This document shows positions 1-64,000 of a DNA stretch of 64,000 nt, piece by piece. Below the pieces are notes generated by a model. The model saw only the letters and a list, made by a program, of their open reading frames with translations, did not search any database and had not been told where the DNA came from. Origin of the DNA: Eledone cirrhosa (taxonomy: Eukaryota). The stretch lies in assembly GCA_964016885.1 (NCBI GenBank), contig OZ024743.1, positions 134,044,001-134,108,000 of the forward strand, read 5' to 3'. Both the position numbers and the translations under genes were made by a program. Each line of letters opens with the position of its first letter. The stretch's first letter is position 1.

Positions 1-1775
1 TTGGTGTTTGGTGCTTGGTGCTTGGTGTTTGGTGCTGGGTGCTGGGTGCTTGGTGTTTGGTGCTTGGTGCTTGGTGCTTGGTGTTTGGTGCTTGGTGCTT
101 TGTGCTTGGTCTTTGGTGCTTGGTGTTTGCTGTTTGGTGCTTGGTGCTTGGTGCTTGGTGTTTGGTGCTTGGTGATTAGTGTTTGGTGCTTGGTACTTGG
201 TGTTTGGTGCTTGCTGTTTGGTGTTTGCTGTTTGGTGTTTGGTGTTTGGTGTTTGCTGTTTGGTGTCTGCTTTTTGGTGTTTGGTGTTTGCTGTATGGTG
301 TCTGCTGTTTCGTGTTTGGTGTTTGCTGTTTGGTGTTTGGTGCTTGGTGCTTGGTGTTTGGTGCTTGGTGCTTGGTGCTCGGTGGTTGGTGTTTGGTGCT
401 TGGTGTTTGGTGCTGGGTGCTTGGTGTTTGGTGCTTGGTGCTTGGTGTTTGGTGCTTGGTGTTTGGTGTTTGGTGCTTGGTGCTTGGTGTTTGGTGCTTG
501 GTGCTTGGTGTTTGGTGCTTGGTGCTTAGTGTTTGGTGCTAGGTGCTTGGGGTTTGGTGTTTGGTGCTTGGTGTTTGGTGCTTGGTGCTTGGTGTTTGGT
601 GTTTGGTGTTCGGTGCTTGGTGCTTGGTATTTGGTGTTTGATGTTTGCTGTTTGGTGTTTGTTGTTTGGTGTTTGTTGTTTGGTGTTTGCTGTTTGGTGT
701 TTGGTGTTTGGTGTTTGCTGTTTGGTGTCTGCTTTTTGGTGTTTGGTGTTTGCTGTATGTTGTTTGCTGTTTGGTGTTTGGTGTTTGGTATTTGGTGTTT
801 GGTGCTTGGTGCTTGGTGTTTGGTGCTTGGATCTTGGTGCTTGGTGCCTGGTGTTTGGTGTTTATTGCTTGTTGCTTGGTGCTTGGTGCTTGGTGTTTGG
901 TGTTTGGTGCTTGGGGTTTGGTGCTGGGTGCTTGGTGTTTGGTGCATGGTGCTTGGTGCTTGGTGTTTGGTGTTATATGCTTGGTGTTTGATGCTTGGTG
1001 CTTGGTGCTTGGTGTTTGGTGTTTGGTGCTTGGTGTTTGATGCTTGGTGTTTGATGCTTGGTGCTTGGTGCTTGGTGTTTGTTGCTTGGTGCTTGGTGTT
1101 TGTACTTGGTGCTTGGTGCTTGGTTCTTGGTGTTTGGTGCTTGGTGCTTGGTGCTTTGTGTTTGGTGCTTGGTGCCTGCTGCTTGGTGCTTGGTGTTTGG
1201 TGTTTGGTGTTTGGTGCTTGGTGTTAGGTGTTTGGTGCTTGGTGCTTGGTGTTTGGTGCTTGGTGCTTGGTGTTTGGTGTTTGGTGCTTGGTGTTTGGTG
1301 CTTGGTACTTGGTGCTTGGTGCTTGGTGTTAGGTGTATGGTGCTTGATGCTTGGTGTTTGGTTTTTGGTGCTTGGTGCTTGGTGTTTGGTGTTTGGTGCT
1401 TGCTGCTGGCTGCTTGGTGCTTGGTGATTGGTGCTTGGTGTTTGGTGCTTGGTGTTTGGTGTTTGGTGCTAGGTGCTTGGTGCTTGGTGTTTGGTGCTTG
1501 GTGCTTGGTGTTTGGTGTTTGGTGTTTGGTGCTTGGTGCTTGGTGTTTGGTGCTTGGTGCTTGGTGCTGGGTGGTTGGTGTTTGGTGCTTGGTGTTTGGT
1601 GCTGGGTGCTTGGTGTTTGGTGCTTGGTGCTTGGTGTTTGGTGCTTGGTGTTTGGTGTTTGGTGCTTGGTGCTTGGTGTTTGGTGCTTGGTGCTTGGTGT
1701 TTGGTGCTTGGTGCTTAGTGTTTGGTGCTAGGTGCTTGGGGTTTGGTGTTTGGTGCTTGGTGTTTGGTGCTTGGT
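1..1775. repeat. Block recurring at +7308 (~7309-9083) and at a further +5973 (~13282-15056)
   Basis: GGATC landmark at 829, 8137 and 14110. Near-identical ORF translations at 179/7487/13460, 533/7841/13814 and 1044/8352/14325. Confidence 0.92.
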
Positions 1776-1859
1776 GCATGGTGTTTGGTGCTGGGTGCTT
1801 GGTGTTTGGTGCTTGGTGTTTGGTGCTTGGTGCTTGGTGTTTGGTGTTTGGTGTTTGAT

Positions 1860-4290
1860 GCTTGGTGCTTGGTGCTTGGTGTTTGGTGCTTGGTGTTTGT
1901 ACTTGGTGCTTGGTGCTTGGTGTTTTGTGCTTAGTTCTTGGTGTTTGGTGTTTGGTGCTTGGTGCTTGGTGCTTGGTGTTAGGTGTTTGGTGCTTGGTGC
2001 TTGGTGTTTGGTCTTTGGTGCTTGGTGTTTGGTGCTTGGTGCTTGGTGTTTGCTGTTTGGTGCTAGATGCTTGGTGCTTGGTGTTTGGTGTTTGGTGTTT
2101 GGTGTTTGGTGCTTCGTGCTTGGGGTTTGGTGTTTGGTGCTTGGTGCTTGGTGCTTGGTCTTTGGTGCTTGGTGCTTGGTGTTTGGTGTTTCGTGTTTGG
2201 TGCTTGGTGCTTGGTGTTTGGTGCTTGGTGCTTGGTGCTGGGTGGTTGGTATTTGGTGCTTGGTGCTTGGTGTTTGGTGCTTGGTGCTTGGTGCTTGGTG
2301 TTTGGTGCTTGGTGCTTGGTGCTTGGTCTTTGGTGCTTGGTGTTTGGTGTTTGGTGCTTGGTGCTTCGTGTTTGGTGTTTGATGCTTGGTGCTTGATGTT
2401 TGGTGCTTGGTGCTTGGTGTTTGGTGCTTGGTGCTTGGTGTTTGTACTTGTTGCTTGGTGCTTGATGTTTGGTGCTTGGTTTTTGGTGCTTGGTGTTTGG
2501 TGTTTGCTGTTTGCTGTTTGGTGCTTGGTGTTTGCTGTTTGGTGTTTGTTGTTTGGTGTTTGCTGTTTGGTGTTTGCTGTTTGGTGTTTGGTGCTTGCTG
2601 TTTGGTGCTTGGTGTTTGGTGCTTGGTGCTTAGTGTTTGGTGTTTGGTGCTTGGTGCTTGGGGCTTGGTGTTTGGTGCTTGGTGCTTGGTGCTTGGTGCT
2701 TGGTGTTTGGTGCATGGTGCTTGGTGCTTGGTGTTTGTCGCTTGGTGCTTGGTGCTTGGTGTTTGGTGCTTGGTGTTTGGTGTTTGGTGCTTGGTGTTTG
2801 GTGTTTGGTGTTTGGTGTTTGAATTTTGCTGTTTGGTGTTTGCTGTTTGCTGTTTGGTGTCTGCTTTTTGGTGTTTGGTGTTTTCTGTATGGTGTTTGCT
2901 GTTTCGTGTTTGGTGTTTGCTGTTTGGTGTTTGCTGTTTGCTGTTTGGTGTTTGGTGCTTGGTGCTTGGTGCTTGGTGTTTGGTGTTTGGTGCTTGGTGT
3001 TTGGTGTTTGGTGCTTGGTGCTTGGATTTTGGTGCTTGGTGCCTGCTGCTTGGTGTTTGGTGTTTGATGCTTGGTGCTTGATGCTTGGTGCTTGGTGTTT
3101 GGTGCTTGGTGCTTGGTGTTTGTACTTGTTACTTGGTGCTTGGTGTCTGGTGTTTGGTGCTTGGTGTCTGGTGTTTTGTGCTTGGTGTTTGGTGTTTGGT
3201 GCTTGGTGCTTGGTGTTTGGTGTTTGGTGCTTGGTGCTTGGTGTTTGGTGTTTAGTGCTTGGTGTTTGGTGTTTGGTGCTTGGTGCTTGGTGTTTGTTGC
3301 TTGGTACTTGGTGCATGGTGTTTGGTGCTGGGTGCTTGGTGTTTGGTGCTTGGTGTTTGGTGCTTGGTGCTTGGTGTTTGGTGTTTGGTGCTTGGTGTTT
3401 GGTGCTTGGTACTTGGTGCTTGGTGCTTGGTGTTAGGTGTTTGGTGCTTGGTGCTTGGTGTTTGATTTTTGGTGCTTGGTGCTTGGTGTTTGGTGCTTGG
3501 TGTTTGTACTTGGTGCTTGGTGCTTGGTGTTTTGTGCTTAGTTCTTGGTGTTTGGTGTTTGGTGCTTGGTGCTTGGTGCTTGGTGTTAGGTGTTTGGTGC
3601 TTGGTGCTTGGTGTTTGGTCTTTGGTGCTTGGTGTTTGGTGCTTGGTGCTTGGTGTTTGCTGTTTGGTGCTAGATGCTTGGTGCTTGGTGTTTGGTGTTT
3701 GGTGTTTGGTGTTTGGTGCTTCGTGCTTGGGGTTTGGTGTTTGGTGCTTGGTGCTTGGTGCTTGGTCTTTGGTGCTTGGTGCTTGGTGTTTGGTATTTCG
3801 TGTTTGGTGCTTGGTGTTTGGTGCTTGGTGCTTGGTGCTGGGTGGTTGGTATTTGGTGCTTGGTGCTTGGTGTTTGGTGCTTGGTGCTTGGTGCTTGGTG
3901 TTTGGTGCTTGGTGCTTGGTGTTTGTTGTTTGGTGCTTTCTGCTTGCTGCTTGGTGTTTGGTGCTTGGTCATTGGTGCTTGGTGTTTGGTGCTTGGTGCT
4001 TGGTGTTTGCTGTTTGGTGCTAGATGCTTGGTGCTTGGTGTTTGGTGTTTGGTGTTTGGTGTTTGGTGCTTCGTGCTTGGGGTTTGGTGTTTGGTGCTTG
4101 GTGCTTGGTGCTTGGTCTTTGGTGCTTGGTGCTTGGTGTTTGGTGTTTCGTGTTTGGTGCTTGGTGCTTGGTGTTTGGTGTTTGGTGCTTGGTGCTTGGT
4201 GCTTGGTGTTTGGTGCTTGGTGCTTGGTGCTTGGTCTTTGGTGCTTGGTGTTTGGTGTTTGGTGCTTGGTGCTTGGTGCTTGGTGTTTGG
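1860..4290. repeat. Three copies of a ~350-450 bp sub-block (offsets 1607 and 350)
   Basis: The CTAGATGC...TTCGTGC TTGGGGT signature recurs. ORFs with the same start sequence begin at 2067, 3674 and 4024; 1862 pairs with 3469. Confidence 0.85.
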
Positions 4291-4559
4291 TGCTTGGTGA
4301 TTAGTGTTTGGTGCTTGGTGCTTGGGGTTTGGTGTTTGGTGCTTGGTGCTTGGTGTTTGGTGCTTGGTACTTGGTGTTTGGTGCTTGGTGTTTGGTGTTT
4401 GCTGTTTGGTGTTTGGTGTTTGGTGTTTGCTGTTTGGTGTCTGCTTTTTGGTGTTTGGTGTTTGCTGTATGGTGTTTGCTGTTTCGTGTTTGGTGTTTGC
4501 TGTTTGGTGTTTGGTGTTTGCTGTTAGGTGGTTGGTCTTTGGTGCTTGGTGTTTGGTGC

Positions 4560-5610
4560 TTGGTGTTTGGTGTTTGGTGCTTGGTGCTTGGTGTTTGGTG
4601 TTTGGTGTTTGGTGCTTGGTGCTTGGTGTTTGGTGTTTGGTGCTTGGTGTTTGGTGTTTGGTGTTTGGTGCTTGGTGTTTGGTGTTTGGTGCCTGGTGTT
4701 TGGTGTTTATTGCTTGTTGCTTGGTGCTTGGTGCTTGGTGTTTGGTGTTTGGTGCTTGGGGTTTGGTGCTGGGTGCTTGGTGTTTGGTGCTTGGTGCTTG
4801 GTGCTTGGTGCTTGGTGTTTCGTGTTTGGTGCTGGGTGATTGGTGTTTGGTGTTTGGTGTTATATGCTTGGTGTTTGATGCTTAGTGCTTGGTGCTTGGT
4901 GTTTGGTGTTTGGTGCTTGGTGTTTGCTGCTTGGTGTTTGATGCTTGGTGCTTGGTACTTGGTGTTTGGTGCTTGGTGCTTGGTGTTTGTACTTGGTGCT
5001 TGGTGTTTGGTTCTTGGTGTTTGGTGCTTGGTGCTTGGTGCTTGGTGCTTTGTGTTTGGTGCTTGGTGTTTGGTGCTTGGTGTTTGGTGCTTGGTGCCTG
5101 CTGCTTGGTGCTTGGTGTTTTGTGTTTGGTGTTTTGGGCTTGGTGTTAGGTGTTTGGTGCTTGGTGCTTGGTGTTTGGTGTTTGGTGCTTGGTGTTTGGT
5201 GCTTGGTGCTTGGTGCTTGGTGTTTGGTGTTTGGTGCTTGGTGCTTGGTGCTTGGTGTTTGGTGTTTGGTGCTTGGTGTTTGGTGTTTGGTGTTTGGTGC
5301 TTGGTGTTTGGTGTTTGGTGCCTGGTGTTTGGTGTTTATTGCTTGTTGCTTGGTGCTTGGTGCTTGGTGTTTGGTGTTTGGTGCTTGGGGTTTGGTGCTG
5401 GGTGCTTGGTGTTTGGTGCTTGGTGCTTGGTGCTTGGTGCTTGGTGTTTCGTGTTTGGTGCTGGGTGCTTGGTGTTTCGTGTTTGGTGTTATATGCTTGG
5501 TGTTTGATGCTTAGTGCTTGGTGCTTGGTGTTTGGTGTTTGGTGCTTGGTGTTTGCTGCTTGGTGTTTGATGCTTGGTGCTTGGTACTTGGTGTTTGGTG
5601 CTTGGTGCTT
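4560..5610. repeat. Local duplication, offset 629 bp (601 bp in the homologous copy at ~10500-11520)
   Basis: The TTATTGC...TTATATG...TTAGTG signature occurs twice. ORF pairs 4889/5518 and 10835/11436. Confidence 0.85.
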
Positions 5611-5619
5611 GGTGTTTGG

Positions 5620-8600
5620 TGCTTTGTGTTTGGTGCTTGGTGTTTGGTGCTTGGTGTTTGGTGCTTGGTGCCTGTGCTTGGTGCTTGGTGTTTGGTGTTT
5701 GGTGTTTGGGGCTTGGTGTTAGGTGTTTGGTGCTTGGTGCTTGGTGTTTGGTGTTTGGTGCTTGGTGTTTGGTGCTTGGTGCTTGGTGTTTGGTGTTTGG
5801 TGCTTGGTGTTTGGTGCTTGGTACTTGGTGCTTGGTGCTTGGTGTTAGGTGTTTGGTGCTTGGTGCTTGGTGTTTGGTTTTTGGTGCTTGGTGCTTGGTG
5901 TTTGGTGTTTGGTGCTTGCTGCTGGCTGCTTGGTGCTTGGTGATTGGTGCTTGGTGTTTGGTGCTTGGTGTTTGGTGTTTGGTGCTAGGTGCTTGGTGCT
6001 TGGTGTTTGGTGCTTGGTGCTTGGTGTTTGGTGTTTGGTGTTTGGTGCTTGGTGCTTGGTGTTTGGTGCTTGGTGCTTGGTGCTGGGTGGTTGGTGTTTG
6101 GTGCTTGGTGTTTGGTGCTGGGTGCTTGGTGTTTGGTGCTTGGTGTTTGGTGCTTGGTGTTTGGTGTTTGGTGCTTGGTGCTTGGTGTTTGGTGCTTGGT
6201 TCTTGGTGTTTGGTGCTTGGTGCTTAGTGTTTGGTGCTAGGTGCTTGGGGTTTGGTGTTTGGTGCTTGGTGTTTGGTGCTTGGTGCTTGGTGTTTGGTGT
6301 TTGGTGTTTGGTGCTTGGTGCTTGGTATTTGGTGTTTGCTGTTTGCTGTTTGGTGTTTGTTGTTTGGTGTTTGTTGTTTGGTGTTTGGTGTTTGCTGTTT
6401 GGTGTCTGCTTTTTGGTGTTTGGTGTTTGCTGTATGTTGTTTGCTGTTTGGTGTTTGGTGTTTGGTATTTGGTGTTTGGTGCTTGGTGCTTGGTGTTTGG
6501 TGCTTGGTGCTTGGTGTTTGGTGCCTGGTGCTTGGTGCTTGGTGTTTGGTGTTTGGTGCTTGGTGCTTGGTGCTTGGAGTTTGGTGTTTGGTGCTTGTTG
6601 CTTGGTGTTTTGTGTTTGGTGTTTGGTTTTTGGTGCTTGGTGCTTGGTGCTTGGTCCTTGGTGTTTGATGCTGGGTGCTTTGTGTTTGGTGCTTGGTGCT
6701 TCGTGCTTGGTGTTTGGTGTTTGCTGCTTGGTGTTTGGTGCTTGGTGCTTGGTGTTTGGTGTTTTGAGTTTGGTGCTTGGTGCTTGGTGTTTGGTGCTTT
6801 GTGCTTGGTGCTTGGTGCTTTTACTTGGTGCTTGGTGCTTGGTGTTTGGTTCTTGGTTCTTGGTGTTTGGTACTTGGTGCTTGGTGCTTGGTGTTTGGTG
6901 CTTGGTGTTTGGTGCTTGTTGCTTGGTGTTTGGTGCTTGGTGTTTGGTGTTTGGTGCTTGGTGCTTGGTGTTTGGTGTTTGGTGTTTGGTGTTTGCTGTT
7001 TGGTGTTTGGTGTTTGCTGTTTGCTGTTTGGTGTCTGCTTTTTGGTGTTTGGTGTTTGCTGTATGGTGTTTGCTGTTTTGGTGTTTGGTGTTTGCTGTTT
7101 GGTGTTTGGTCTTTGGTGCTTGGTGTTTGGTGTTTGGTGCTTGGTGCTTGGTGCTTGGTGTTTGGTGTTTGGTGCTTGGTGTCTGGTGCTTGGTGTTTGG
7201 TGTTTGGTGCTTGGTGTTTGGTGTTTGGTGTTTGGTGCTTGGTGCTTGGTGTTTGGTGTTTGGTGCTTGGTGTTTGGTGTTTGGTGCTTGTTGCTTGGTG
7301 CTTGGTGCTTGGTGTTTGGTGCTTGGTGCTTGGTGTTTGGTGCTGGGTGCTGGGTGCTTGGTGTTTGGTGCTTGGTGCTTGGTGCTTGGTGTTTGGTGCT
7401 TGGTGCTTTGTGCTTGGTCTTTGGTGCTTGGTGTTTGCTGTTTGGTGCTTGGTGCTTGGTGCTTGGTGTTTGGTGCTTGGTGATTAGTGTTTGGTGCTTG
7501 GTACTTGGTGTTTGGTGCTTGCTGTTTGGTGTTTGCTGTTTGGTGTTTGGTGTTTGGTGTTTGCTGTTTGGTGTCTGCTTTTTGGTGTTTGGTGTTTGCT
7601 GTATGGTGTCTGCTGTTTCGTGTTTGGTGTTTGCTGTTTGGTGTTTGGTGCTTGGTGCTTGGTGTTTGGTGCTTGGTGCTTGGTGCTCGGTGGTTGGTGT
7701 TTGGTGCTTGGTGTTTGGTGCTGGGTGCTTGGTGTTTGGTGCTTGGTGCTTGGTGTTTGGTGCTTGGTGTTTGGTGTTTGGTGCTTGGTGCTTGGTGTTT
7801 GGTGCTTGGTGCTTGGTGTTTGGTGCTTGGTGCTTAGTGTTTGGTGCTAGGTGCTTGGGGTTTGTTGTTTGGTGCTTGGTGTTTGGTGCTTGGTGCTTGG
7901 TGTTTGGTGTTTGGTGTTCGGTGCTTGGTGCTTGGTATTTGGTGTTTGATGTTTGCTGTTTGGTGTTTGTTGTTTGGTGTTTGTTGTTTGGTGTTTGCTG
8001 TTTGGTGTTTGGTGTTTGGTGTTTGCTGTTTGGTGTCTGCTTTTTGGTGTTTGGTGTTTGCTGTATGTTGTTTGCTGTTTGGTGTTTGGTGTTTGGTATT
8101 TGGTGTTTGGTGCTTGGTGCTTGGTGTTTGGTGCTTGGATCTTGGTGCTTGGTGCCTGGGGTTTGGTGTTTATTGCTTGTTGCTTGGTGCTTGGTGCTTG
8201 GTGTTTGGTGTTTGGTGCTTGGGGTTTGGTGCTGGGTGCTTGGTGTTTGGTGCATGGTGCTTGGTGCTTGGTGTTTGGTGTTATATGCTTGGTGTTTGAT
8301 GCTTGGTGCTTGGTGCTTGGTGTTTGGTGTTTGGTGCTTGGTGTTTGATGCTTGGTGTTTGATGCTTGGTGCTTGGTGCTTGGTGTTTGTTGCTTGGTGC
8401 TTGGTGTTTGTACTTGGTGCTTGGTGCTTGGTTCTTGGTGTTTGGTGCTTGGTGCTTGGTGCTTTGTGTTTGGTGCTTGGTGCCTGCTGCTTGGTGCTTG
8501 GTGTTTGGTGTTTGGTGTTTGGTGCTTGCTGTTAGGTGTTTGGTGCTTGGTGCTTGGTGTTTGGTGCTTGGTGCTTGGTGTTTGGTGTTTGGTGCTTGGT

Positions 8601-19200: not shown

Positions 19201-19865
19201 TGGTGCTTGGTACTTGGTGTTTGGTTCTTGGTGTTTGGTGTTTGCTGTTTGGTGTTTGGTGTTTGGTGTTTGGTGTTTGCTGTTTGGTGTCTGCTTTTTG
19301 GTGTTTGGTGTTTGCTGTATGGTGTTTGCTGTTTCGTGTTTAGTGTTTGCTGTTTGGTGTTTGGTGCTTGGTGCCTGGTGTTTGGTGCTTGGTGCTTGGT
19401 GCTGGGTGGTTGGTGTTTGGTGCTTGGTGTTTGGTGCTGGGTGCTTGGTGTTTGGTGCTTGGTGCTTGGTGTTTGGTGCTTGGTGTTTGGTGTTTGGTGC
19501 TTGGTGCTTGGTGTTTGGTGCTTGGTGCCTGGTGTTTGGTGCTTGGTGCTTAGTGTTTGGTGCTAGATGCTTGGGGTTTGGTGTTTGGTGCTTGGTGTTT
19601 GGTGCTTGTTGCTTGGTGTTTGGTGTTTGGTGTTTGGTGCTTGGTGCTTGGTATTTGGTGTTTGATGTTTGCTGTTTGGTGTTTGTTGTTTGGTGTTTGC
19701 TGTTTGGTGTTTGCTGTTTGGTGTTTGGTGTTTGGTGTTTGCTGTTTGGTGTCTGCTTTTTGGTGTTTGGTGTTTGCTGTATGTTGTTTGCTGTTTGGTG
19801 TTTGGTGTTTGGTATTTGGTGTTTGGTGCTTGGTGCTTGGTGTTTGGTGCTTGGATCTTGGTGTT
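14640..19865. repeat. 2903-bp duplication (~14640-16960 vs ~17545-19865), more diverged than the 5973-bp pair
   Basis: ORF pairs 14754/17657, 15206/18109, 16244/19147 and 16654/19557. GGATC at 16950 and 19853. Confidence 0.9.
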
Positions 19866-49100: not shown

Positions 49101-50460
49101 TGGTGTTAGGTGTTTGGTGCTTAGTGCTTGGTGTTTGGTGTTTGGTGCTTGGTGTTTGGTGCTTGGTGCTTGGTGTTTGGTGTTTGGTGCTTGGTGTTTG
49201 GTGCTTGCTACGTGGTGCTTGGTGCTTGGTGTTTGCTGTTTGCTGTTTGGTGTCTGCTTTTTGGTGTTTGGTGTTTGCTGTATGGTGTTTGCTGTTTGGT
49301 GTCTGGTGTTTGCTGTTTGGTGTTTGGTCTTTGGTGCTTGGTGTTTGGTGCTTGGTGCTTGGTGTTTGGTGTTTGGTGCTTGGTGCTTGGTGTTTGGTGT
49401 TTGGTGCTTGGTGCTTGGTGTTTGGTGTTTGGTGCTTTGTGTCAGGTGCTTGGTGTTTGGTGTTTGCTGTATGTTGTTTGCTGTTTGGTGTTTGGTGTTT
49501 GGTATTTGGTGTTTGGTGCTTGGTGCTTGGTGTTTGGTGCTTGGTGCTTGGTGTTTGGTGCCTGTTGCTTGGTGCTTGTTGTTTGGTGTTTGGTGCTTGG
49601 TGCTTGGTGCTTGGAGTTTGGTGTTTGGTGCTTGTTGCTTGGTGTTTTGTGTTTGGTTTTTGGTTTTTGGTGCTTGGTGCTTGGTGCTTGGTCCTTGGTG
49701 TTTGGTGCTGCGTGCTTTGTGTTTGGTGCTTGGTGCTTTGTGCTTGGTGTTTGGTGTTTGCTGCTTGGTGTTTGGTGCTTGGTGCTTCGTGCTTGGTGTT
49801 TTGTGTTTGGTGCTTGGTGCTTGGTGTTTGGTGCTTGGTGCTTGGTGCTTGGTGTTTGTACTTGGTGCTTGGTGCTTGGTGTTTGGTTCTTGGTTCTTGG
49901 TGTTTGGTACTTGGTGCTTGGTGCTTGGTGCTTGGTGTTTGGTGCTTGGTGTTTGGTGCTTGGTGCTTGGTGTTTGGTGCTTGGTGTTTGGTGCTTGGTG
50001 CTTGGTATTTGGTGTTTGGTGTTTGGTGTTTGCTGTTTGCTGTTTGGTGTTTGGTGTTTGCTGTTTGCTGTTTGGTGTCTGCTTTTTGGTGTTTGGTGTT
50101 TGCTGTATGGTGTTTGCTGTTTGGTGTTTGGTGTTTGCTGTTTGGTGTTTGGTCTTTGGTGCTTGGTGTTTGGTGCTTGGTGCTTGGTGTTTGGTGTTTG
50201 GTGCTTGGTGCTTGGTGTTTGGTGTTTGGTGCTTGGTGCTTGGTGTCTGGTGCTTGGTGCTTGGTGCTTGGTGTTTGGTGCTTGGTGCTTGGTGCTGGGT
50301 GCTGGGTGCTTGGTCTTTGGTGCTTGGTGTTTGGTGTTTGGTGCTTGGTGTTTGGTGCTTGGTGTTTGGTGCTTGGTGATTAGTGTTTGGTGCTTGGTGC
50401 TTGGGGTTTGGTGTTTCGTGCTTGGTGCTTGGTGTTTGGTGCTTGGTACTTGGTGTTTGG
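45780..50460. repeat. 2342-bp tandem duplication, essentially identical copies
   Basis: ORF pairs 45787/48129, 46184/48526 and 46719/49061. CTACG at 46691/49033 and 46866/49208. Confidence 0.95.
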
Positions 50461-53079: not shown

Positions 53080-56000
53080 TGGTTTTTGGTGCTTGGTGCT
53101 TGGTGCTTGGTGTTTGGTGTTTGGTGCTTGGTGCTTGGTGCTTGGTGTTTGGTGCTTGGTGCTTGGTGTTTGGTGCTGGGTGCTTGGTGTTTGGTGCTTG
53201 GTGCTTGGTGCTTGGTGTTTGGTGCTGGGTGCTTGGTGTTTGGTGTTCGGTGTTATAAGCTTGGTGTTTGATGCTTGGTGCTTGGTGCTTGTTGTTTGGT
53301 GTTTGGTGATTGGTGTTTGATGCTTGGTGTTTGATGCTTGGTGCTTGGTGCTTGGTGTTTGGTGCTTGGTGCTTGGTGTTTGTACCTGGTGCTTGGTTCT
53401 TTGTGTTTGGTGCTTGGTGCTTGGTGCTTTGTGTTTGGTGCTTGGTGTTTGGTGCTTGGTGTTTGGTGCTTGGTGCCTGGTGCTTGGTGCTTGGTGCTTG
53501 GTGTTTGGTGCTTGGTGTTTGGTGCTTGGTGTTAGGTGTTTGGTGCTTGGTGCTTGGTGTTTGGTGTTTGGTGCTTGGTGTTTGGTGCTTGGTGCTTGGT
53601 GTTTGGTGTTTGGTGCTTGGTGTTTGGTGCTTGGTACTTGGTGCTTGGTGTTAGGTGTTTGGTGCTTGGTGCTTGGTGTTTGGTTTTTGGTGCTTGGTGC
53701 TTGGTGTTTGGTGTTTGGTGCTTGCTGCTGGCTGCTTGGTGCTTGGTGATTGGTGCTTGGTGTTTGGTGCTTGGTGTTTGGTGTTTGGTGTTTGGTGCTT
53801 GGTGCTTGGTGCATGGTGCTTGGTGTTTGGTGCTTGGTGTTTGGTGCTTGGTGTTAGGTGTTTGGTGCTTAGTGCTTGGTGTTTGGTGTTTGGTGCTTGG
53901 TCTTTGGTGCTTGGTGCTTGGTGTTTGGTGTTTGGTGCTTGGTGTTTGGTGCTTGCTACGTGGTGCTTGGTGCTTGGTGTTAGGTGTTTGGTGCTTGGTG
54001 TGTGGTGTTTGGTTTTTGGTGCTTGGTGTTAGGTGTTTGGTGCTTAGTGCTTGGTGTTTGGTGTTTGGTGCTTGGTGTTTGGTGCTTGGTGCTTGGTGTT
54101 TGGTGTTTGGTGCTTGGTGTTTGGTGCTTGCTACGTGGTGCTTGGTGCTTGGTGTTTGCTGTTTGCTGATTGGTGTCTGCTTTTTGGTGTTTGGTGTTTG
54201 TTGTATGGTGTTTGCTGTTTGGTGTCTGGTGTTTGCTGTTTGGTGTTTGGTCTTTGGTGCTTGGTGTTTGGTGCTTGGTGCTTGGTGTTTGGTGTTTGGT
54301 GCTTGGTGCTTGTTGTTTGGTGTTTGGTGCTTGGTGCTTGGTGTTTGGTGTTTGGTGCTTTGTGTCAGGTGCTTGGTGTTTGGTGTTTGCTGTATGTTGT
54401 TTGCTGTTTGGTGTTTGGTGTTTGGTATTTGGTGTTTGGTGCTTGGTGCTTGGTGTTTGGTGCTTGGTGCTTGGTGTTTGGTGCCTGTTGCTTGGTGCTT
54501 GTTGTTTGGTGTTTGGTGCTTGGTGCTTGGTGCTTGGAGTTTGGTGTTTGGTGCTTATTGCTTGGTGTTTTGTGTTTGGTTTTTGGTTTTTGGTGCTTGG
54601 TGCTTGGTGCTTGGTCCTTGGTGTTTGGTGCTGCGTGCTTTGTGTTTGGTGCTTGGTGCTTTGTGCTTGGTGTTTGGTGTTTGCTGCTTGGTGTTTGGTG
54701 CTTGGTGCTTCGTGCTTGGTGTTTTGTGTTTGGTGCTTGGTGCTTGGTGTTTGGTGCTTGGTGCTTGGTGCTTGGTGTTTGTACTTGGTGCTTGGTGCTT
54801 GGTGTTTGGTTCTTGGTTCTTGGTGTTTGGTACTTGGTGCTTGGTGCTTGGTGCTTGGTGTTTGGTGCTTGGTGTTTGGTGCTTGGTGCTTGGTGTTTGG
54901 TGCTTGGTGTTTGGTGCTTGGTGCTTGGTATTTGGTGTTTGGTGTTTGGTGTTTGCTGTTTGCTGTTTGGTGTTTGGTGTTTGCTGTTTGCTGTTTGGTG
55001 TCTGCTTTTTGGTGTTTGGTGTTTGCTGTATGGTGTTTGCTGTTTGGTGTTTGGTGTTTGCTGTTTGGTGTTTGGTCTTTGGTGCTTGGTGTTTGGTGCT
55101 TGGTGCTTGGTGTTTGGTTTTTGGTGCTTGGTGCTTGGTGCTTGGTGTTTGGTGTTTGGTGCTTGGTGCTTGGTGCTTGGTGTTTGGTGCTTGGTGCTTG
55201 GTGTTTGGTGCTGGGTGCTTGGTGTTTGGTGCTTGGTGCTTGGTGCTTGGTGTTTGGTGCTGGGTGCTTGGTGTTTGGTGTTCGGTGTTATAAGCTTGGT
55301 GTTTGATGCTTGGTGCTTGGTGCTTGTTGTTTGGTGTTTGGTGCTTGGTGTTTGATGCTTGGTGTTTGATGCTTGGTGCTTGGTGCTTGGTGTTTGGTGC
55401 TTGGTGCTTGGTGTTTGTACTTGGTGCTTGGTTCTTTGTGTTTGGTGCTTGGTGCTTGGTGCTTTGTGTTTGGTGCTTGGTGTTTGGTGCTTGGTGTTTG
55501 GTGCTTGGTGCCTGGTGCTTGGTGCTTGGTGCTTGGTGTTTGGTGCTTGGTGTTTGGTGCTTGGTGTTAGGTGTTTGGTGCTTGGTGCTTGGTGTTTGGT
55601 GTTTGGTGCTTGGTGTTTGGTGCTTGGTGCTTGGTGTTTGGTGTTTGGTGCTTGGTGTTTGGTGCTTGGTACTTGGTGCTTGGTGTTAGGTGTTTGGTGC
55701 TTGGTGCTTGGTGTTTGGTTTTTGGTGCTTGGTGCTTGGTGTTTGGTGTTTGGTGCTTGCTGCTGGCTGCTTGGTGCTTGGTGATTGGTGCTTGGTGTTT
55801 GGTGCTTGGTGTTTGGTGTTTGGTGTTTGGTGCTTGGTGCTTGGTGCATGGTGCTTGGTGTTTGGTGCTTGGTGTTTGGTGCTTGGTGTTAGGTGTTTGG
55901 TGCTTAGTGCTTGGTGTTTGGTGTTTGGTGCTTGGTCTTTGGTGCTTGGTGCTTGGTGTTTGGTGTTTGGTGCTTGGTGTTTGGTGCTTGCTACGTGGTG

Positions 56001-57140
56001 CTTGGTGCTTGGTGTTAGGTGTTTGGTGCTTGGTGTGTGGTGTTTGGTTTTTGGTGCTTGGTGTTAGGTGTTTGGTGCTTAGTGCTTGGTGTTTGGTGTT
56101 TGGTGCTTGGTGTTTGGTGCTTGGTGCTTGGTGTTTGGTGTTTGGTGCTTGGTGTTTGGTGCTTGCTACGTGGTGCTTGGTGCTTGGTGTTTGCTGTTTG
56201 CTGATTGGTGTCTGCTTTTTGGTGTTTGGTGTTTGTTGTATGGTGTTTGCTGTTTGGTGTCTGGTGTTTGCTGTTTGGTGTTTGGTCTTTGGTGCTTGGT
56301 GTTTGGTGCTTGGTGCTTGGTGTTTGGTGTTTGGTGCTTGGTGCTTGTTGTTTGGTGTTTGGTGCTTGGTGCTTGGTGTTTGGTGTTTGGTGCTTTGTGT
56401 CAGGTGCTTGGTGTTTGGTGTTTGCTGTATGTTGTTTGCTGTTTGGTGTTTGGTGTTTGGTATTTGGTGTTTGGTGCTTGGTGCTTGGTGTTTGGTGCTT
56501 GGTGCTTGGTGTTTGGTGCCTGTTGCTTGGTGCTTGTTGTTTGGTGTTTGGTGCTTGGTGCTTGGTGCTTGGAGTTTGGTGTTTGGTGCTTATTGCTTGG
56601 TGTTTTGTGTTTGGTTTTTGGTTTTTGGTGCTTGGTGCTTGGTGCTTGGTCCTTGGTGTTTGGTGCTGCGTGCTTTGTGTTTGGTGCTTGGTGCTTTGTG
56701 CTTGGTGTTTGGTGTTTGCTGCTTGGTGTTTGGTGCTTGGTGCTTCGTGCTTGGTGTTTTGTGTTTGGTGCTTGGTGCTTGGTGTTTGGTGCTTGGTGCT
56801 TGGTGCTTGGTGTTTGTACTTGGTGCTTGGTGCTTGGTGTTTGGTTCTTGGTTCTTGGTGTTTGGTACTTGGTGCTTGGTGCTTGGTGCTTGGTGTTTGG
56901 TGCTTGGTGTTTGGTGCTTGGTGCTTGGTGTTTGGTGCTTGGTGTTTGGTGCTTGGTGCTTGGTATTTGGTGTTTGGTGTTTGGTGTTTGCTGTTTGCTG
57001 TTTGGTGTTTGGTGTTTGCTGTTTGCTGTTTGGTGTCTGCTTTTTGGTGTTTGGTGTTTGCTGTATGGTGTTTGCTGTTTGGTGTTTGGTGTTTGGTGTT
57101 TGGTGTTTGGTCTTTGGTGCTTGGTGTTTGGTGCTTGGTG
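53080..57140. repeat. 2035-bp tandem duplication
   Basis: AAGCTT at 53257 and 55292. ORFs 53536/55571 and 54170/56205. CTACG at 53956/55991. Confidence 0.93.
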
Positions 57141-57679
57141 CTTGGTGTTTGGTGTTTGGTGCTTGGTGCTTGGTGTTTGGTGTTTGGTGCTTGGTGCTTG
57201 GTGTCTGGTGCTTGGTGCTTGGTGCTTGGTGTTTGGTGCTTGGTGCTTGGTGCTGGGTGCTGGGTGCTTGGTCTTTGGTGCTTGGTGTTTGGTGTTTGGT
57301 GCTTGGTGTTTGGTGCTTGGTGTTTGGTGCTTGGTGATTAGTGTTTGGTGCTTGGTGCTTGGGGTTTGGTGTTTCGTGCTTGGTGCTTGGTGTTTGGTGC
57401 TTGGTACTTGGTGTTTGGTGCTTGGTGTTTGGTGTTTGCTGTTTGGTGTTTGGTGTTTGGTGTTTGGTGTTTGCTGTTTGGTGTCTGCTTTTTGGTGTTT
57501 GGTGTTTGTTGTATGGTGTTTGCTGTTTCGTGTTTGGTGTTTGCTGTTTGCTGTTTGGTGTTTGGTGTTTGCTGTTTGGTGTTTGGTCTTTGGTGCTTGG
57601 TGATTGGTGCTTGGTGTTTGGTGTTTGGTGCTTGGTGTTTGGTTTTTGGTGCTTGGTGCTTGGTGCTTGGTGTTTGGTG

Positions 57680-59620
57680 TTTGGTGCTTGGTGCTTGGTG
57701 CTTGGTGTTTGGTGCTTGGTGCTTGGTGTTTGGTGCTGGGTGCTTGGTGTTTGGTGCTTGGTGCTTGGTGCTTGGTGTTTGGTGCTGGGTGCTTGGTGTT
57801 TGGTGTTCGGTGTTATATGCTTGGTGTTTGATGCTTGGTGCTTGGTGCTTGTTGTTTGGTGTTTGGTGCTTGGTGTTTGATGCTTGGTGTTTGATGCTTG
57901 GTGCTTGGTGCTTGGTGTTTGGTGCTTGGTGCTTGGTGTTTGTACTTGGTGCTTGGTTCTTTGTGTTTGGTGCTTGGTGCTTGGTGCTTTGTGTTTGGTG
58001 CTTGGTGTTTGGTGCTTGGTGTTTGGTGCTTGGTGCCTGGTGCTTGGTGCTTGGTGCTTGGTGTTTGGTGCTTGGTGTTTGGTGCTTGGTGTTAGGTGTT
58101 TGGTGCTTGGTGCTTGGTGTTTGGTGTTTGGTGCTTGGTGTTTGGTGCTTGGTGCTTGGTGTTTGGTGTTATATGCTTGGTGTTTGATGCTTGGTGCTTG
58201 GTGTTTGGTGTTTGATGCTTGGTGCTTGATGCTTGGTGCTTGGTGCTTGGTGTTTGGTGCTTGGTGCTTGGTGTTTGTACTTGTTGCTTGGTGCTTGATG
58301 CTTGGTGATTGGTGTTTGGTGCTTGGTTCTTGGTGTTTGGTGCTTGGTGTTTGGTGCTTGGTGCTTGGTGTTTGGTGCTTGGTGCTTGGTGTTTGGTGTT
58401 TGGTGCTTGGTGCTTGGTTCTTGGTGTTTGGTGCTTGGTGCTTGGTGCTTGGTGTTTGGTGCTTGGTGCTTGGTGTTTGGTGCTTGGTGTTTGGTGCTTG
58501 GTGTTTGGTGCTTGGTGCTTGGTGCTTGGTGCATGGTGCTTGGTGTTTGGTGCTTGGTGTTTGGTGCTTGGTGTTAGGTGTTTGGTGCTTAGTGCTTGGT
58601 GTTTGGTGTTTGGTGCTTGGTGTTTGGTGCTTGGTGCTTGGTGTTTGGTGTTTGGTGCTTGGTGCTTGGTGCTTGGTGTTTGGTGCTTGGTGCTTGGTGT
58701 TTGGTGCTGGGTGCTTGGTGTTTGGTGCTTGGTGCTTGGTGCTTGGTGTTTGGTGCTGGGTGCTTGGTGTTTGGTGTTCGGTGTTATATGCTTGGTGTTT
58801 GATGCTTGGTGCTTGGTGCTTGTTGTTTGGTGTTTGGTGCTTGGTGTTTGATGCTTGGTGTTTGATGCTTGGTGCTTGGTGCTTGGTGTTTGGTGCTTGG
58901 TGCTTGGTGTTTGTACTTGGTGCTTGGTTCTTTGTGTTTGGTGCTTGGTGCTTGGTGCTTTGTGTTTGGTGCTTGGTGTTTGGTGCTTGGTGTTTGGTGC
59001 TTGGTGCCTGGTGCTTGGTGCTTGGTGCTTGGTGTTTGGTGCTTGGTGTTTGGTGCTTGGTGTTAGGTGTTTGGTGCTTGGTGCTTGGTGTTTGGTGTTT
59101 GGTGCTTGGTGTTTGGTGCTTGGTGCTTGGTGTTTGGTGTTATATGCTTGGTGTTTGATGCTTGGTGCTTGGTGTTTGGTGTTTGATGCCTGGTGCTTGA
59201 TGCTTGGTGCTTGGTGCTTGGTGTTTGGTGCTTGGTGCTTGGTGTTTGTACTTGTTGCTTGGTGCTTGATGCTTGGTGATTGGTGTTTGGTGCTTGGTTC
59301 TTGGTGTTTGGTGCTTGGTGTTTGGTGCTTGGTGCTTGGTGTTTGGTGCTTGGTGCTTGGTGTTTGGTGTTTGGTGCTTGGTGCTTGGTTTTTGGTGTTT
59401 GGTGCTTGGTGCTTGGTGCTTGGTGTTTGGTGCTTGGTGCTTGGTGTTTGGTGCTTGGTGTTTGGTGCTTGGTGTTTGGTGCTTGGTGCTTGGTGCTTGG
59501 TGCATGGTGCTTGGTGTTTGGTGCTTGGTGTTTGGTGCTTGGTGTTAGGTGTTTGGTGCTTAGTGCTTGGTGTTTGGTGTTTGGTGCTTGGTGTTTGGTG
59601 CTTGGTGCTTGGTGTTTGGT
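57680..59620. repeat. 971-bp tandem duplication
   Basis: ORF pairs 57884/58855, 58169/59140 and 58302/59273. Confidence 0.9.
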
Positions 59621-62600
59621 GTTTGGTGCTTGGTGTTTGGTGCTTGCTACGTGGTGCTTGGTGCTTGGTGTTAGGTGTTTGGTGCTTGGTGTGTGGTGTT
59701 TGGTTTTTGGTGCTTGGAGTTAGGTGTTTGCTGCTTAGTGCTTGGTGTTTGGTGTTTGGTGCTTGGTGTTTGGTGCTTGGTGCTTGGTGTTTGGTGTTTG
59801 GTGCTTGGTGTTTGGTGCTTGCTACGTGGTGCTTGGTGCTTGGTGTTTGCTGTTTGCTGTTTGGTGTCTGCTTTTTGGTGTTTGGTGTTTGCTGTATGGT
59901 GTTTGCTGTTTGGTGTCTGGTGTTTGCTGTTTGGTGTTTGGTCTTTGGTGCTTGGTGTTTGGTGCTTGGTGCTTGGTGTTTGGTGTTTGGTGCTTGGTGC
60001 TTGGTGTTTGGTGTTTGGTGCTTGGTGCTTGGTGTTTGGTGTTTGGTGCTTTGTGTCAGGTGCTTGGTGTTTGGTGTTTGCTGTATGTTGTTTGCTGTTT
60101 GGTGTTTGGTGTTTGGTATTTGGTGTTTGGTGCTTGGTGCTTGGTGTTTGGTGCTTGGTGCTTGGTGTTTGGTGCCTGTTGCTTGGTGCTTGTTGTTTGG
60201 TGTTTGGTGCTTGGTGCTTGGTGCTTGGAGTTTGGTGTTTGGTGCTTGTTGCTTGGTGTATTGTGTTTGGTTTTTGGTTTTTGGTGCTTGGTGCTTGGTG
60301 CTTGGTCCTTGGTGTTTGGTGCTGCGTGCTTTGTGTTTGGTGCTTGGTGCTTTGTGCTTGGTGTTTGGTGTTTGCTGCTTGGTGTTTGGTGCTTGGTGCT
60401 TCGTGCTTGGTGTTTTGTGTTTGGTGCTTGGTGCTTGGTGTTTGGTGCTTGGTGCTTGGTGCTTGGTGTTTGTACTTGGTGCTTGGTGCTTGGTGTTTGG
60501 TTCTTGGTTCTTGGTGTTTGGTACTTGGTGCTTGGTGCTTGGTGCTTGGTGTTTGGTGCTTGGTGTTTGGTGCTTGGTGCTTGGTGTTTGGTGCTTGGTG
60601 CTTGGTATTTGGTGTTTGGTGTTTGGTGTTTGCTGTTTGCTGTTTGGTGTTTGGTGTTTGCTGTTTGCTGTTTGGTGTCTGCTTTTTGGTGTTTGGTGTT
60701 TGCTGTATGGTGTTTGCTGTTTGGTGTTTGGTGTTTGCTGTTTGGTGTTTGGTCTTTGGTGCTTGGTGTTTGGTGCTTGGTGCTTGGTGTTTGGTGTTTG
60801 GTGCTTGGTGCTTGGTGTTTGGTGTTTGGTGCTTGGTGCTTGGTCTCTGGTGCTTGGTGCTTGGTGCTTGGTGTTTGGTGCTTGGTGCTTGGTGCTGGGT
60901 GCTGGGTGCTTGGTCTTTGGTGCTTGGTGTTTGGTGTTTGCTGTTTGGTATTTGGTGTTTGGTGTTTGGTGTTTGCTGTTTGGTGTCTGCTTTTTGGTGT
61001 TTGGTGTTTGTTGTATGGTGTTTGCTGTTTCGTGTTTGGTGTTTGCTGTTTGCTGTTTGGTGTTTGGTGTTTGCTGTTTGGTGTTTGGTCTTTGGTGCTT
61101 GGTGATTGGTGCTTGGTGTTTGGTGTTTGGTGCTTGGTGTTTGGTTTTTGGTGCTTGGTGCTTGGTGCTTGGTGTTTGGTGTTTGGTGCTTGGTGCTTGG
61201 TGCTTGGTGTTTGGTGCTTGGTGCTTGGTGTTTGGTGCTGGGTGCTTGGTGTTTGGTGCTTGGTGCTTGGTGCTTGGTGTTTGGTGCTGGGTGCTTGGTG
61301 TTTGGTGTTCGGTGTTATAAGCTTGGTGTTTGATGCTTGGTGCTTGGTGCTTGTTGTTTGGTGTTTGGTGCTTGGTGTTTGATGCTTGGTGTTTGATGCT
61401 TGGTGCTTGGTGCTTGGTGTTTGGTGCTTGGTGCTTGGTGTTTGTACTTGGTGCTTGGTTCTTTGTGTTTGGTGCTTGGTGCTTGGTGCTTTGTGTTTGG
61501 TGCTTGGTGTTTGGTGCTTGGTGTTTGGTGCTTGGTGCCTGGTGCTTGGTGCTTGGTGCTTGGTGTTTGGTGCTTGGTGTTTGGTGCTTGGTGTTAGGTG
61601 TTTGGTGCTTGGTGCTTGGTGTTTGGTGTTTGGTGCTTGGTGTTTGGTGCTTGGTGCTTGGTGTTTGGTGTTTGGTGCTTGGTGTTTGGTGCTTGGTACT
61701 TGGTGCTTGGTGTTAGGTGTTTGGTGCTTGGTGCTTGGTGTTTGGTTTTTGGTGCTTGGTGCTTGGTGTTTGGTGTTTGGTGCTTGCTGCTGGCTGCTTG
61801 GTGCTTGGTGATTGGTGCTTGGTGTTTGGTGCTTGGTGTTTGGTGTTTGGTGTTTGGTGCTTGGTGCTTGGTGCATGGTGCTTGGTGTTTGGTGCTTGGT
61901 GTTTGGTGCTTGGTGTTAGGTGTTTGGTGCTTAGTGCTTGGTGTTTGGTGTTTGGTGCTTGGTCTTTGGTGCTTGGTGCTTGGTGTTTGGTGTTTGGTGC
62001 TTGGTGTTTGGTGCTTGCTACGTGGTGCTTGGTGCTTGGTGTTAGGTGTTTGGTGCTTGGTGTGTGGTGTTTGGTTTTTGGTGCTTGGTGTTAGGTGTTT
62101 GGTGCTTAGTGCTTGGTGTTTGGTGTTTGGTGCTTGGTGTTTGGTGCTTGGTGCTTGGTGTTTGGTGTTTGGTGCTTGGTGTTTGGTGCTTGCTACGTGG
62201 TGCTTGGTGCTTGGTGTTTGCTGTTTGCTGATTGGTGTCTGCTTTTTGGTGTTTGGTGTTTGTTGTATGGTGTTTGCTGTTTGGTGTCTGGTGTTTGCTG
62301 TTTGGTGTTTGGTCTTTGGTGCTTGGTGTTTGGTGCTTGGTGCTTGGTGTTTGGTGTTTGGTGCTTGGTGCTTGTTGTTTGGTGTTTGGTGCTTGGTGCT
62401 TGGTGTTTGGTGTTTGGTGCTTTGTGTCAGGTGCTTGGTGTTTGGTGTTTGCTGTATGTTGTTTGCTGTTTGGTGTTTGGTGTTTGGTATTTGGTGTTTG
62501 GTGCTTGGTGCTTGGTGTTTGGTGCTTGGTGCTTGGTGTTTGGTGCCTGTTGCTTGGTGCTTGTTGTTTGGTGTTTGGTGCTTGGTGCTTGGTGCTTGGA

Positions 62601-64000
62601 GTTTGGTGTTTGGTGCTTATTGCTTGGTGTTTTGTGTTTGGTTTTTGGTTTTTGGTGCTTGGTGCTTGGTGCTTGGTCCTTGGTGTTTGGTGCTGCGTGC
62701 TTTGTGTTTGGTGCTTGGTGCTTTGTGCTTGGTGTTTGGTGTTTGCTGCTTGGTGTTTGGTGCTTGGTGCTTCGTGCTTGGTGTTTTGTGTTTGGTGCTT
62801 GGTGCTTGGTGTTTGGTGCTTGGTGCTTGGTGCTTGGTGTTTGTACTTGGTGCTTGGTGCTTGGTGTTTGGTTCTTGGTTCTTGGTGTTTGGTACTTGGT
62901 GCTTGGTGCTTGGTGCTTGGTGTTTGGTGCTTGGTGTTTGGTGCTTGGTGCTTGGTGTTTGGTGCTTGGTGTTTGGTGCTTGGTGCTTGGTATTTGGTGT
63001 TTGGTGTTTGGTGTTTGCTGTTTGCTGTTTGGTGTTTGGTGTTTGCTGTTTGCTGTTTGGTGTCTGCTTTTTGGTGTTTGGTGTTTGCTGTATGGTGTTT
63101 GCTGTTTGGTGTTTGGTGTTTGCTGTTTGGTGTTTGGTCTTTGGTGCTTGGTGTTTGGTGCTTGGTGCTTGGTGTTTGGTGTTTGGTGCTTGGTGCTTGG
63201 TGTTTGGTGTTTGGTGCTTGGTGCTTGGTGTCTGGTGCTTGGTGCTTGGTGCTTGGTGTTTGGTGCTTGGTGCTTGGTGCTGGGTGCTGGGTGCTTGGTC
63301 TTTGGTGCTTGGTGTTTGGTGTTTGGTGCTTGGTGTTTGGTGCTTGGTGTTTGGTGCTTGGTGATTAGTGTTTGGTGCTTGGTGCTTGGGGTTTGGTGTT
63401 TCGTGCTTGGTGCTTGGTGTTTGGTGCTTGGTACTTGGTGTTTGGTGCTTGGTGTTTGGTGTTTGCTGTTTGGTGTTTGGTGTTTGGTGTTTGGTGTTTG
63501 CTGTTTGGTGTCTGCTTTTTGGTGTTTGGTGTTTGTTGTATGGTGTTTGCTGTTTCGTGTTTGGTGTTTGCTGTTTGCTGTTTGGTGTTTGGTGTTTGCT
63601 GTTTGGTGTTTGGTCTTTGGTGCTTGGTGATTGGTGCTTGGTGTTTGGTGTTTGGTGCTTGGTGTTTGGTTTTTGGTGCTTGGTGCTTGGTGCTTGGTGT
63701 TTGGTGTTTGGTGCTTGGTGCTTGGTGCTTGGTGTTTGGTGCTTGGTGCTTGGTGTTTGGTGCTGGGTGCTTGGTGTTTGGTGCTTGGTGCTTGGTGCTT
63801 GGTGTTTGGTGCTGGGTGCTTGGTGTTTGGTGTTCGGTGTTATATGCTTGGTGTTTGATGCTTGGTGCTTGGTGCTTGTTGTTTGGTGTTTGGTGCTTGG
63901 TGTTTGATGCTTGGTGTTTGATGCTTGGTGCTTGGTGCTTGGTGTTTGGTGCTTGGTGCTTGGTGTTTGTACTTGGTGCTTGGTTCTTTGTGTTTGGTGC

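What the first reader, a model, noticed from the sequence alone, without database searches (positions are those of the whole stretch)
1..64000. Simple 7-mer satellite carrying an irregular, multi-scale higher-order repeat mosaic
Seen: duplication offsets of 175, 223, 293, 350, 629, 670, 971, 972, 1140, 1607, 1761, 2035, 2342, 2532, 2903, 5973, 6027, 6958, 7308, 8062 and ~10,055 bp, nested and overlapping, with no single fixed HOR period. Established: HORs are typical of primate alpha satellite (171-bp monomer), and human HSat2/3 builds kb-scale units from a 5-mer. Inference: this is an HSat-like architecture built on a heptamer that I do not recognise as a named satellite family, and it may be undescribed.
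Basis: partly seen in the sequence, partly recalled or inferred. Interest (0 to 1): 0.72.

Follow-up and report, generated by a model that had tools for sequence, protein, structure and literature searches.

The report
Scrambled 7-base megabase satellite, likely octopus
This window is a small piece of a 14.6-million-base block of one 7-letter repeat on one chromosome of what is likely an octopus; its irregular duplications are real and are likely the scrambled remains of one older 2.4-kb unit, recopied at every scale up to about a million bases as in human satellites 2 and 3, so the sequence appears undescribed but the architecture is a known kind.

Summary
Observation confirmed. The window is pure (TTGGTGY)n, and all 21 claimed offsets carry exact matches of 142-2,544 bp; 10 randomised controls reach 92-119 bp at most. 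The offsets are not HOR periods: the strongest period holds 4.2%. They are scars of single duplications and deletions in one ancestral unit of about 345-358 monomers (2.4-2.5 kb), which explains the whole window at 98.3% identity. The window lies in a 14.6-Mb array on one 379-Mb chromosome that holds about the whole genomic amount. The array is built from roughly megabase modules: one inversion junction stands in 10 copies that differ by about 0.6%. A toy model of random in-register duplication and deletion reproduces most window statistics, so no special mechanism is needed. It works like human HSat2/3 but is not a member. The host is likely an octopod. No paper with the motif was found; Dfam and Repbase could not be searched. 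A centromere role is untested. The scan already found this array from another window (e1-10312968).

The parts
1..64000 (+). Continuous (TTGGTGY)n satellite in one orientation; 64 kb of a 14.6-Mb array (G000:C4 about 128.823-143.422 Mb), subfamily A
38599..40982 (+). The only complete pass through the ancestral unit of about 345 monomers (2.4 kb); it was the seed of the master consensus
25467..27682 (+). Independent near-complete pass through the same unit, in the same order, with one small internal repeat
5571..16280 (+). Duplication at offset 5,973: 5571-10307 copied at 11544-16280, 4,737 bp, 5 mismatches
1..9085 (+). Duplication at offset 7,308: 1-1777 copied at 7309-9085, 4 mismatches
14640..19882 (+). 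Older duplication at offset 2,903: 2,340 bp, 23 mismatches
19270..24758 (+). Nested tandem duplications at offsets 2,532 (2,542 bp, 2 mismatches) and 1,140 (1,418 bp, 5 mismatches)
27865..28463 (+). Perfect tandem duplication of 293 bp with a 13-bp junction overlap
45766..50469 (+). Perfect tandem duplication of 2,342 bp with a 20-bp junction overlap; no mismatch, so either very young or an assembly error
48855..64000 (+). Overlapping duplications at offsets 6,958, 8,062, 2,035, 6,027 and 971 (1.0-3.2 kb each, 2-11 mismatches)

Best explanation
The window is non-coding satellite DNA from a 14.6-Mb single-chromosome block of a 7-base repeat, and its mosaic is likely the record of repeated out-of-register copying: a 2.4-2.5-kb unit was likely amplified in tandem and then cut up by duplications and deletions of every size. 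Shown: the 7-bp monomer; one unit order that explains the whole window; structural changes that keep the 7-bp register; four interleaved subfamilies; and an inverted block whose end junctions are copied along the array. Inferred order of events: (1) a TTGGTGY run picked up variant monomers; (2) a piece of about 85 monomers was multiplied into the unit of about 345 monomers; (3) that unit spread as subfamily A beside subfamilies B, C and D; (4) one inversion of a subfamily-C block took place; (5) the C-B-A segment of about 1 Mb was copied about ten times, twice in reverse; (6) small and kb-scale duplications and deletions go on at about one per four substitutions. The likely engine is homology-guided repair or unequal exchange between misaligned monomers, since every 7-bp step offers short homology. 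The sequence cannot separate unequal crossover from break-induced replication or slippage. The block is most likely heterochromatin with no sequence-specific function.
For: Master unit: jump alignment gives 87% token and 98.3% base identity over about 26 copies, in 152 segments with 68 distinct jumps. On 3,000 tokens the real score is +1,886 against about -1,430 in 3 shuffles. On window 1-36,000, which excludes the seed, the true order needs 84 jumps against 134-170 for 12 block-permuted masters; a second seed converges on 358 monomers in the same order. The order also holds in distant subfamily-A samples: 234 of 922 anchor pairs colinear, about 6% expected. Sub-period: self-hit 23.5 at lag 82 and 18.5 at lag 87 against a best of 14.5 in 30 shuffles. 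Array: 125 of 127 samples between 128.9 and 143.4 Mb are this satellite; ends; 416,462 genome-wide matches equal about 14.4 Mb. Modules: 10 of 10 junctions found share both arms, 2 of them reversed; the opposite junction is also shared in 2 of 2 places examined. Junction copies differ by 5.6-6.0 substitutions and 1.4-1.5 structural breaks per kb (157 of 180 ordered pairs kept, 23 with 1,500 aligned bp or less dropped). Simulation with structural-to-substitution ratios of 0.3-0.6 gives 733-2,003 matches of 100 bp or more (real 1,176), 97-310 offsets (real 159) and top peaks of 2.1-4.5% (real 4.2%); without structural events the top peak is about 40%. Longest reading frames lie within or near the shuffle range. 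No stable fold in the one 300-nt piece tested, z 0.10.
Against: The simulation is a toy with hand-picked sizes and 3 runs per setting. It keeps less of the 2.2-2.6-kb spacing (2-8% in the settings that fit best) than the real window (15%), and no run exceeded 37 matches of 500 bp or more (real 40). The only full pass through the master is its own seed, so a once-regular tandem array is inferred, not seen. In distant subfamily-A samples 688 of 922 anchor pairs are not colinear. Preference for longer junction homology is weak: 18.3 bp against 13.5 bp, p 0.048, 10 events, one with an ambiguous value. The megabase picture rests on samples about 0.1 Mb apart, not on the whole array. No reads were laid on the array and there are no chromatin data.
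Confidence: 0.8

Rival explanations
1. The array is, or holds, the centromere of this chromosome: a chromosome-specific centromeric satellite whose turnover is driven by fork collapse and out-of-register restart. This is compatible with the copying history above and differs in function.
For: It is a single multi-megabase block at 34-38% of a 379-Mb chromosome, nearly free of interruptions (125 of 127 samples), with young large duplications. Unchecked earlier notes report other single-locus megabase satellites on other pieces of this genome. A review describes break-induced repair as a model of centromeric expansion (PMC8122249, passages).
Against: It is not a repeat shared by all chromosomes: the genome-wide amount is about that of this one array, with a small C2 island. 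About 30% is in reverse orientation with many switches (39 of 125 samples), and there is no homogeneous core among the samples. In humans that pattern marks pericentromeric HSat3 and diverged alpha satellite rather than active HOR arrays (passages).
Confidence: 0.2
2. The kb- and Mb-scale duplications are assembly artefacts, such as mis-joined reads or both haplotypes placed in tandem.
For: Low-complexity DNA is hard to assemble. The 2,342-bp and 293-bp tandem copies have no mismatch. No read-level check was obtained.
Against: Of the 21 claimed offsets, 18 differ by 1-23 substitutions. The same rearrangement junctions recur up to 10 times. Ten junction copies differ pairwise by about 0.6% plus structural changes; a haplotype duplication would give two copies. 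No N in the 284-kb stretch around the window.
Confidence: 0.04
3. The array is a true fixed higher-order repeat of the alpha-satellite type, kept regular by selection, with structural variants.
For: A recognisable unit of 345-358 monomers exists, and 15% of informative spacings fall at 2.2-2.6 kb.
Against: Only 1 of 152 segments spans a whole unit and the median segment is 44 monomers. No spacing exceeds 4.2% in the window or 1.1% in the 284-kb stretch.
Confidence: 0.03
4. The repeat encodes a repetitive protein; the canonical heptamer has no stop codon in any frame.
For: Stop-free frames of 1,198 codons (+) and 2,050 codons (-) exist.
Against: Five token shuffles give 727-1,101 (+) and 1,034-2,219 (-) codons and the same number of stops. 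RNA runs hold only 5-12% of sampled words and are metatranscriptomes.
Confidence: 0.01

Closest known systems
Human HSat2/HSat3 with nested tandem repeats (Altemose et al., bioRxiv 10.1101/2021.07.12.452052, passages; PMC4022460, passages)
   Same: A short simple repeat built into kb-scale units (1.77 kb for HSat2A2); chromosome-specific arrays of 12.7-27.6 Mb; subfamilies; periodicity that varies along an array; many inversion breakpoints in chr9 HSat3B5.
   Different: Unrelated monomer (7 bp against the CATTC pentamer) and phylum. Here 73% of monomers are still canonical, and the kb unit is almost never intact. A pericentromeric position is shown for HSat2/3 and untested here.
Yq12 heterochromatin, DYZ1/DYZ2 (T2T-Y, bioRxiv 10.1101/2022.12.01.518724, passages)
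   Same: Blocks of 0.1-1 Mb of alternating satellite types, copied by iterative tandem duplications of up to 5 Mb and ascribed to unequal exchange.
   Different: Yq12 alternates two unrelated families with over 98% identical units. Here the blocks are subfamilies of one heptamer, and each module carries an inverted block.
Unequal-crossover model of satellite evolution (Smith 1976, seen only as summarised in PMC8122249, passages)
   Same: Periodicity and its turnover arise from repeated out-of-register exchange without selection; the toy simulation here behaves that way.
   Different: A model, not a family. It does not address inversions or the megabase modules.
Alpha-satellite higher-order repeats
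   Same: Multimeric units made of variant monomers, and recent nested duplications.
   Different: No dominant period, no stable monomer classes at 7 bp, and no CENP-A evidence.
Drosophila virilis 7-bp satellites (recalled, from no call; 'virilis' had 0 hits in the review read)
   Same: Megabase-scale heptamer satellite.
   Different: As recalled, AT-rich and near-homogeneous with other motifs; not compared here.

Membership tests
Human HSat2/HSat3 | Derived from the CATTC pentamer | tested here: not met
   Period 7; the pentamer is not among the 30 commonest 5-mers and the strand has 1.3% A.
Human HSat2/HSat3 | Kb-scale nested unit built from a simple repeat, varying along the array | tested here: met
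   2.4-2.5-kb master; local offsets vary.
Human HSat2/HSat3 | Multi-megabase, largely chromosome-specific array with subfamilies and inversions | tested here: met
   14.6 Mb; 4 clusters (58, 45, 18, 4 of 125 samples); 39 of 125 reversed.
Human HSat2/HSat3 | Pericentromeric heterochromatin | not testable with these tools
   No FISH, Hi-C or chromatin data.
Alpha-satellite-type HOR array | A fixed multimer repeated head to tail with one dominant period | tested here: not met
   Top period 4.2%; 1 of 152 segments is a whole unit.
Centromeric satellite | CENP-A occupancy | not testable with these tools
   No ChIP data; one paper holds cephalopod, centromer, CENP-A and octopus, and its passages concern the protein.
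Centromeric satellite (genome-wide type) | A large array on every chromosome | tested here: not met
   Genome-wide amount about 14.4 Mb against a 14.6-Mb span on C4; only C4 and C2 seen. Small arrays elsewhere are not excluded.
Telomeric or interstitial telomeric repeat | TTAGGG units | tested here: not met
   0 on either strand.
Any named satellite in Dfam or Repbase | Consensus match to a library entry | not testable with these tools
   Libraries not held; motif searches of papers gave 0 hits and 1 irrelevant hit.

The most novel reading that the evidence does not exclude
The block is the chromosome-specific centromere or pericentromere of a giant octopod chromosome, in a genome where each large chromosome carries a private short-monomer megabase satellite instead of a shared centromeric repeat. 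Its five nested scales (7 bp, about 0.6 kb, 2.4 kb, 1-25 kb, about 1 Mb) and ten marked junction copies would then give a measurable clock of structural against point mutation in cephalopod centromeric DNA.
Probability: 0.2. Interest if true: 0.62.

Novelty: new member of a known kind. Interest (0 to 1): 0.3.

Why it matters
If the best reading holds, the array shows that the HSat2/3 and Yq12 architecture arises independently from another monomer in a mollusc, as a generic result of recombination. It also gives a rare number: about one structural change per four substitutions between copies of one junction. The motif is a ready chromosome-specific FISH probe. It would matter more if CENP-A sits on it, because the searches here found no description of cephalopod centromeric DNA.

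Tried and rejected
Coding repeat: frames no longer than shuffles. Strand secondary structure: none in the 300 nt folded. Telomere origin: no TTAGGG. Fixed HOR: rejected. Exact matches of 60 bp as evidence: too common in controls. Long junction homology as a mechanism marker: 10.0 bp null with random pairs but 13.5 bp with distance-matched pairs, p 0.048, so only weak. No read-level check of the duplications was obtained. A clean plus-to-minus junction pattern found 1 place; the others are degenerate and two were found by reading contiguous stretches. The minus-to-plus switch between 131.6 and 131.7 Mb was not hit by the exact pattern, so 10 junction copies is a lower bound. Mapping the 25/27-bp satellite over all chromosomes failed because only 40 of 853 candidates were scored. 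Paper searches without a relevant hit: 0; 1, loquat SSR primers; 7; 4; 10; 0; listings only. Earlier-findings look-ups near the window, by motif words and by sequence gave nothing or unrelated bacterial heptamers.

Full report
Observation. The window is one uninterrupted array of period 7 with 9,152 copies, 49% GC with constant strand skew. Two monomers, TTGGTGC (37.8%) and TTGGTGT (35.1%), and 95 rarer types make it up; 9,075 of 9,152 tokens are 7 bp. The window has 1,176 exact matches of 100 bp or more; 5 token shuffles give 0-1 and 5 Markov simulations give 3-9, none longer than 119 bp. No period dominates: the top spacing is 4.2%.

A hidden ancestral unit. Rare monomers recur in a fixed order. 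A circular consensus of 345 monomers (2,413 bp), seeded at 38,599-40,982, explains the whole window when jumps are allowed: 87% token identity, 98.3% base identity, about 26 copies, 152 segments and 68 distinct jumps, 37 backward and 31 forward. The order is not an artefact of the seed. On window 1-36,000 it needs 84 jumps against 134-170 for 12 block-permuted versions, and a second seed, which I joined from two window pieces, converges on 358 monomers (2,504 bp) in the same order. In distant samples of the same subfamily, 234 of 922 anchor pairs keep the spacing, against about 6% by chance. The unit shows an older sub-period of about 82-87 monomers (self-hit 23.5 against at most 14.5 in 30 shuffles). 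Against the reading: the only complete pass is the seed itself and the median segment is 44 monomers, so a formerly regular array is inferred.

The surroundings. The window is G000:C4:134,044,001-134,108,000 on a 378.8-Mb sequence. Of 127 samples between 128.9 and 143.4 Mb, 125 are this satellite, 86 forward and 39 reverse. The ends lie near 128.823 and 143.422 Mb. A five-monomer pattern has 416,462 matches in the genome, none for its control. At the mean density of 49 samples that equals about 14.4 Mb, or 12.3 Mb at the window's own density, so this array holds about all of it. A small island lies on C2 from 250.8606 to past 250.905 Mb, inside a 25/27-bp satellite. In the 284 kb around the window there are further duplications at offsets of 9,267, 18,395 and 19,459 bp.

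Megabase modules. The samples fall into four clusters (58, 45, 18 and 4 of 125), and the order reversed C, then B, then A recurs along the array. An exact pattern finds 10 minus-to-plus junctions between 130.44 and 142.89 Mb. All 10 share both arms, 2 in reverse, so they descend from one inversion. The other end of the inverted block is also the same junction at both places read, near 133.0366 and 134.3270 Mb. The module holding the window is therefore 1.23-1.29 Mb; spacings between same-direction junction copies found range from 0.4 to 2.8 Mb, the largest spanning a switch the pattern missed. Between copies the first 3 kb of each arm differ by 5.6-6.0 substitutions and 1.4-1.5 structural breaks per kb, about half of the breaks being 1-3 monomers (157 of 180 ordered pairs kept). 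This graded divergence among ten copies argues against assembly error. Single perfect duplications, such as 45,766-50,469, cannot be cleared without reads.

Mechanism. Shown: rearrangements keep the 7-bp register and occur from one monomer to about 1 Mb. Inferred: they arise by homology-guided exchange or repair between misaligned monomers. A toy simulation, starting from a regular array of the master with random duplications and deletions of 1-1,500 monomers, gives 733-2,003 matches of 100 bp or more, 97-310 offsets and top peaks of 2.1-4.5% at structural-to-substitution ratios of 0.3-0.6; the real values are 1,176, 159 and 4.2%, and the measured ratio is about 0.25. It keeps less of the unit spacing than the real window (2-8% against 15%). 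Junction overlaps in 10 young tandem duplications are only slightly longer than matched chance (18.3 against 13.5 bp, p 0.048). Coding and folding were rejected. I put 0.8 on this history with a passive heterochromatic role, and 0.2 on a centromeric role, which the sequence cannot test.

Host. The genome has mollusc-type haemocyanin domains, 39 matches, with seven in a row in one gene on C1. One unit scores best among single units against PDB 1js8 (818.7 bits) ahead of 4yd9_C (712.6). That these are octopus and squid proteins, and that seven units mark octopods, is recalled, not from a call. A LINE-like fragment beside the array has 36 homologues, and the only named animal hit is from Octopus bimaculoides. 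An octopod is likely.

Comparison. It works like HSat2/3: a simple repeat built into kb-scale nested units, arrays of 12.7-27.6 Mb, periodicity varying along an array, and many inversions (10.1101/2021.07.12.452052, passages; PMC4022460, passages). Yq12 shows iterative duplications of up to 5 Mb ascribed to unequal exchange (10.1101/2022.12.01.518724, passages). The general model is summarised in PMC8122249 (passages). It is not a member of HSat2/3 (other monomer), nor an alpha-type HOR (no dominant period). Searches for the motif and for cephalopod satellites or centromeres found no description (listings; PMC12210499 passages). Dfam, Repbase, subscription journals and the bioRxiv supplements, which hold the NTRprism figures, were not seen.

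Earlier notes and verdict. I stated my reading before the first look-up. An unreviewed note from a window 8.74 Mb downstream reached the same reading of the same array (e1-10312968); it is not independent support. Verdict: real, a new member of a known kind, interest 0.3. The open question is whether it marks a cephalopod centromere.

Noticed in passing
L082, L012, L080, L081 (G000:C2 about 250.71-251.10 Mb); L148, L182 (C4 140.10-140.14 Mb); C4 205.93-206.28 Mb; C2 244.31 Mb: A second satellite with 25-bp and 27/28-bp units. It surrounds the heptamer island on C2, and a block of it sits inside the heptamer array on C4, which suggests exchange between the two chromosomes.
   Followed up: partly
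L012, L077-L079 (G000:C2 250.8606-250.905 Mb): The heptamer island on C2 is closest to C4 samples at 138.35 and 135.548 Mb (0.79 and 0.75 of informative 42-mers shared), so it is likely a recent transfer from the main array.
   Followed up: partly
L164-L173; L003 near 7337; C4 129.226, 133.0366 and 134.3270 Mb: The inversion junctions seen join the strands at or beside the self-complementary GC of the monomer; the amplified one is a 40-bp perfect palindrome in 9 of 10 copies. Only about two independent inversions, so no statistics.
   Followed up: partly
G000:C4 129.212-129.226 Mb (L003): A small inversion of about 14 kb inside a reverse-oriented domain.
   Followed up: no
L158 (G000:C4 142.450-142.456 Mb): A degenerate AT-rich 11/12-bp satellite in both orientations with microsatellites between, interrupting the array.
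   Followed up: no
L033, L001 (upstream of the window, about -15,065 to +3,355): A near-perfect 9,267-bp tandem duplication reaching into the window start; exact runs of 6,017 and 3,136 bp.
   Followed up: no
G000:C1 173.74-173.91 Mb, C26 21.93-22.02 Mb, C27: Several haemocyanin gene copies on three sequences, those on C26 as an inverted pair.
   Followed up: no
L017 8324-9625; L013 4439-5191: A 433-aa frame that looks like a retroelement gag or ORF1 by eye (not searched), and a LINE-like fragment with 36 homologues, in the flanks of the array.
   Followed up: partly
window 1-64000: Only 129 CpG against about 2,217 expected from composition; this follows from the motif and leaves little substrate for DNA methylation.
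   Followed up: no
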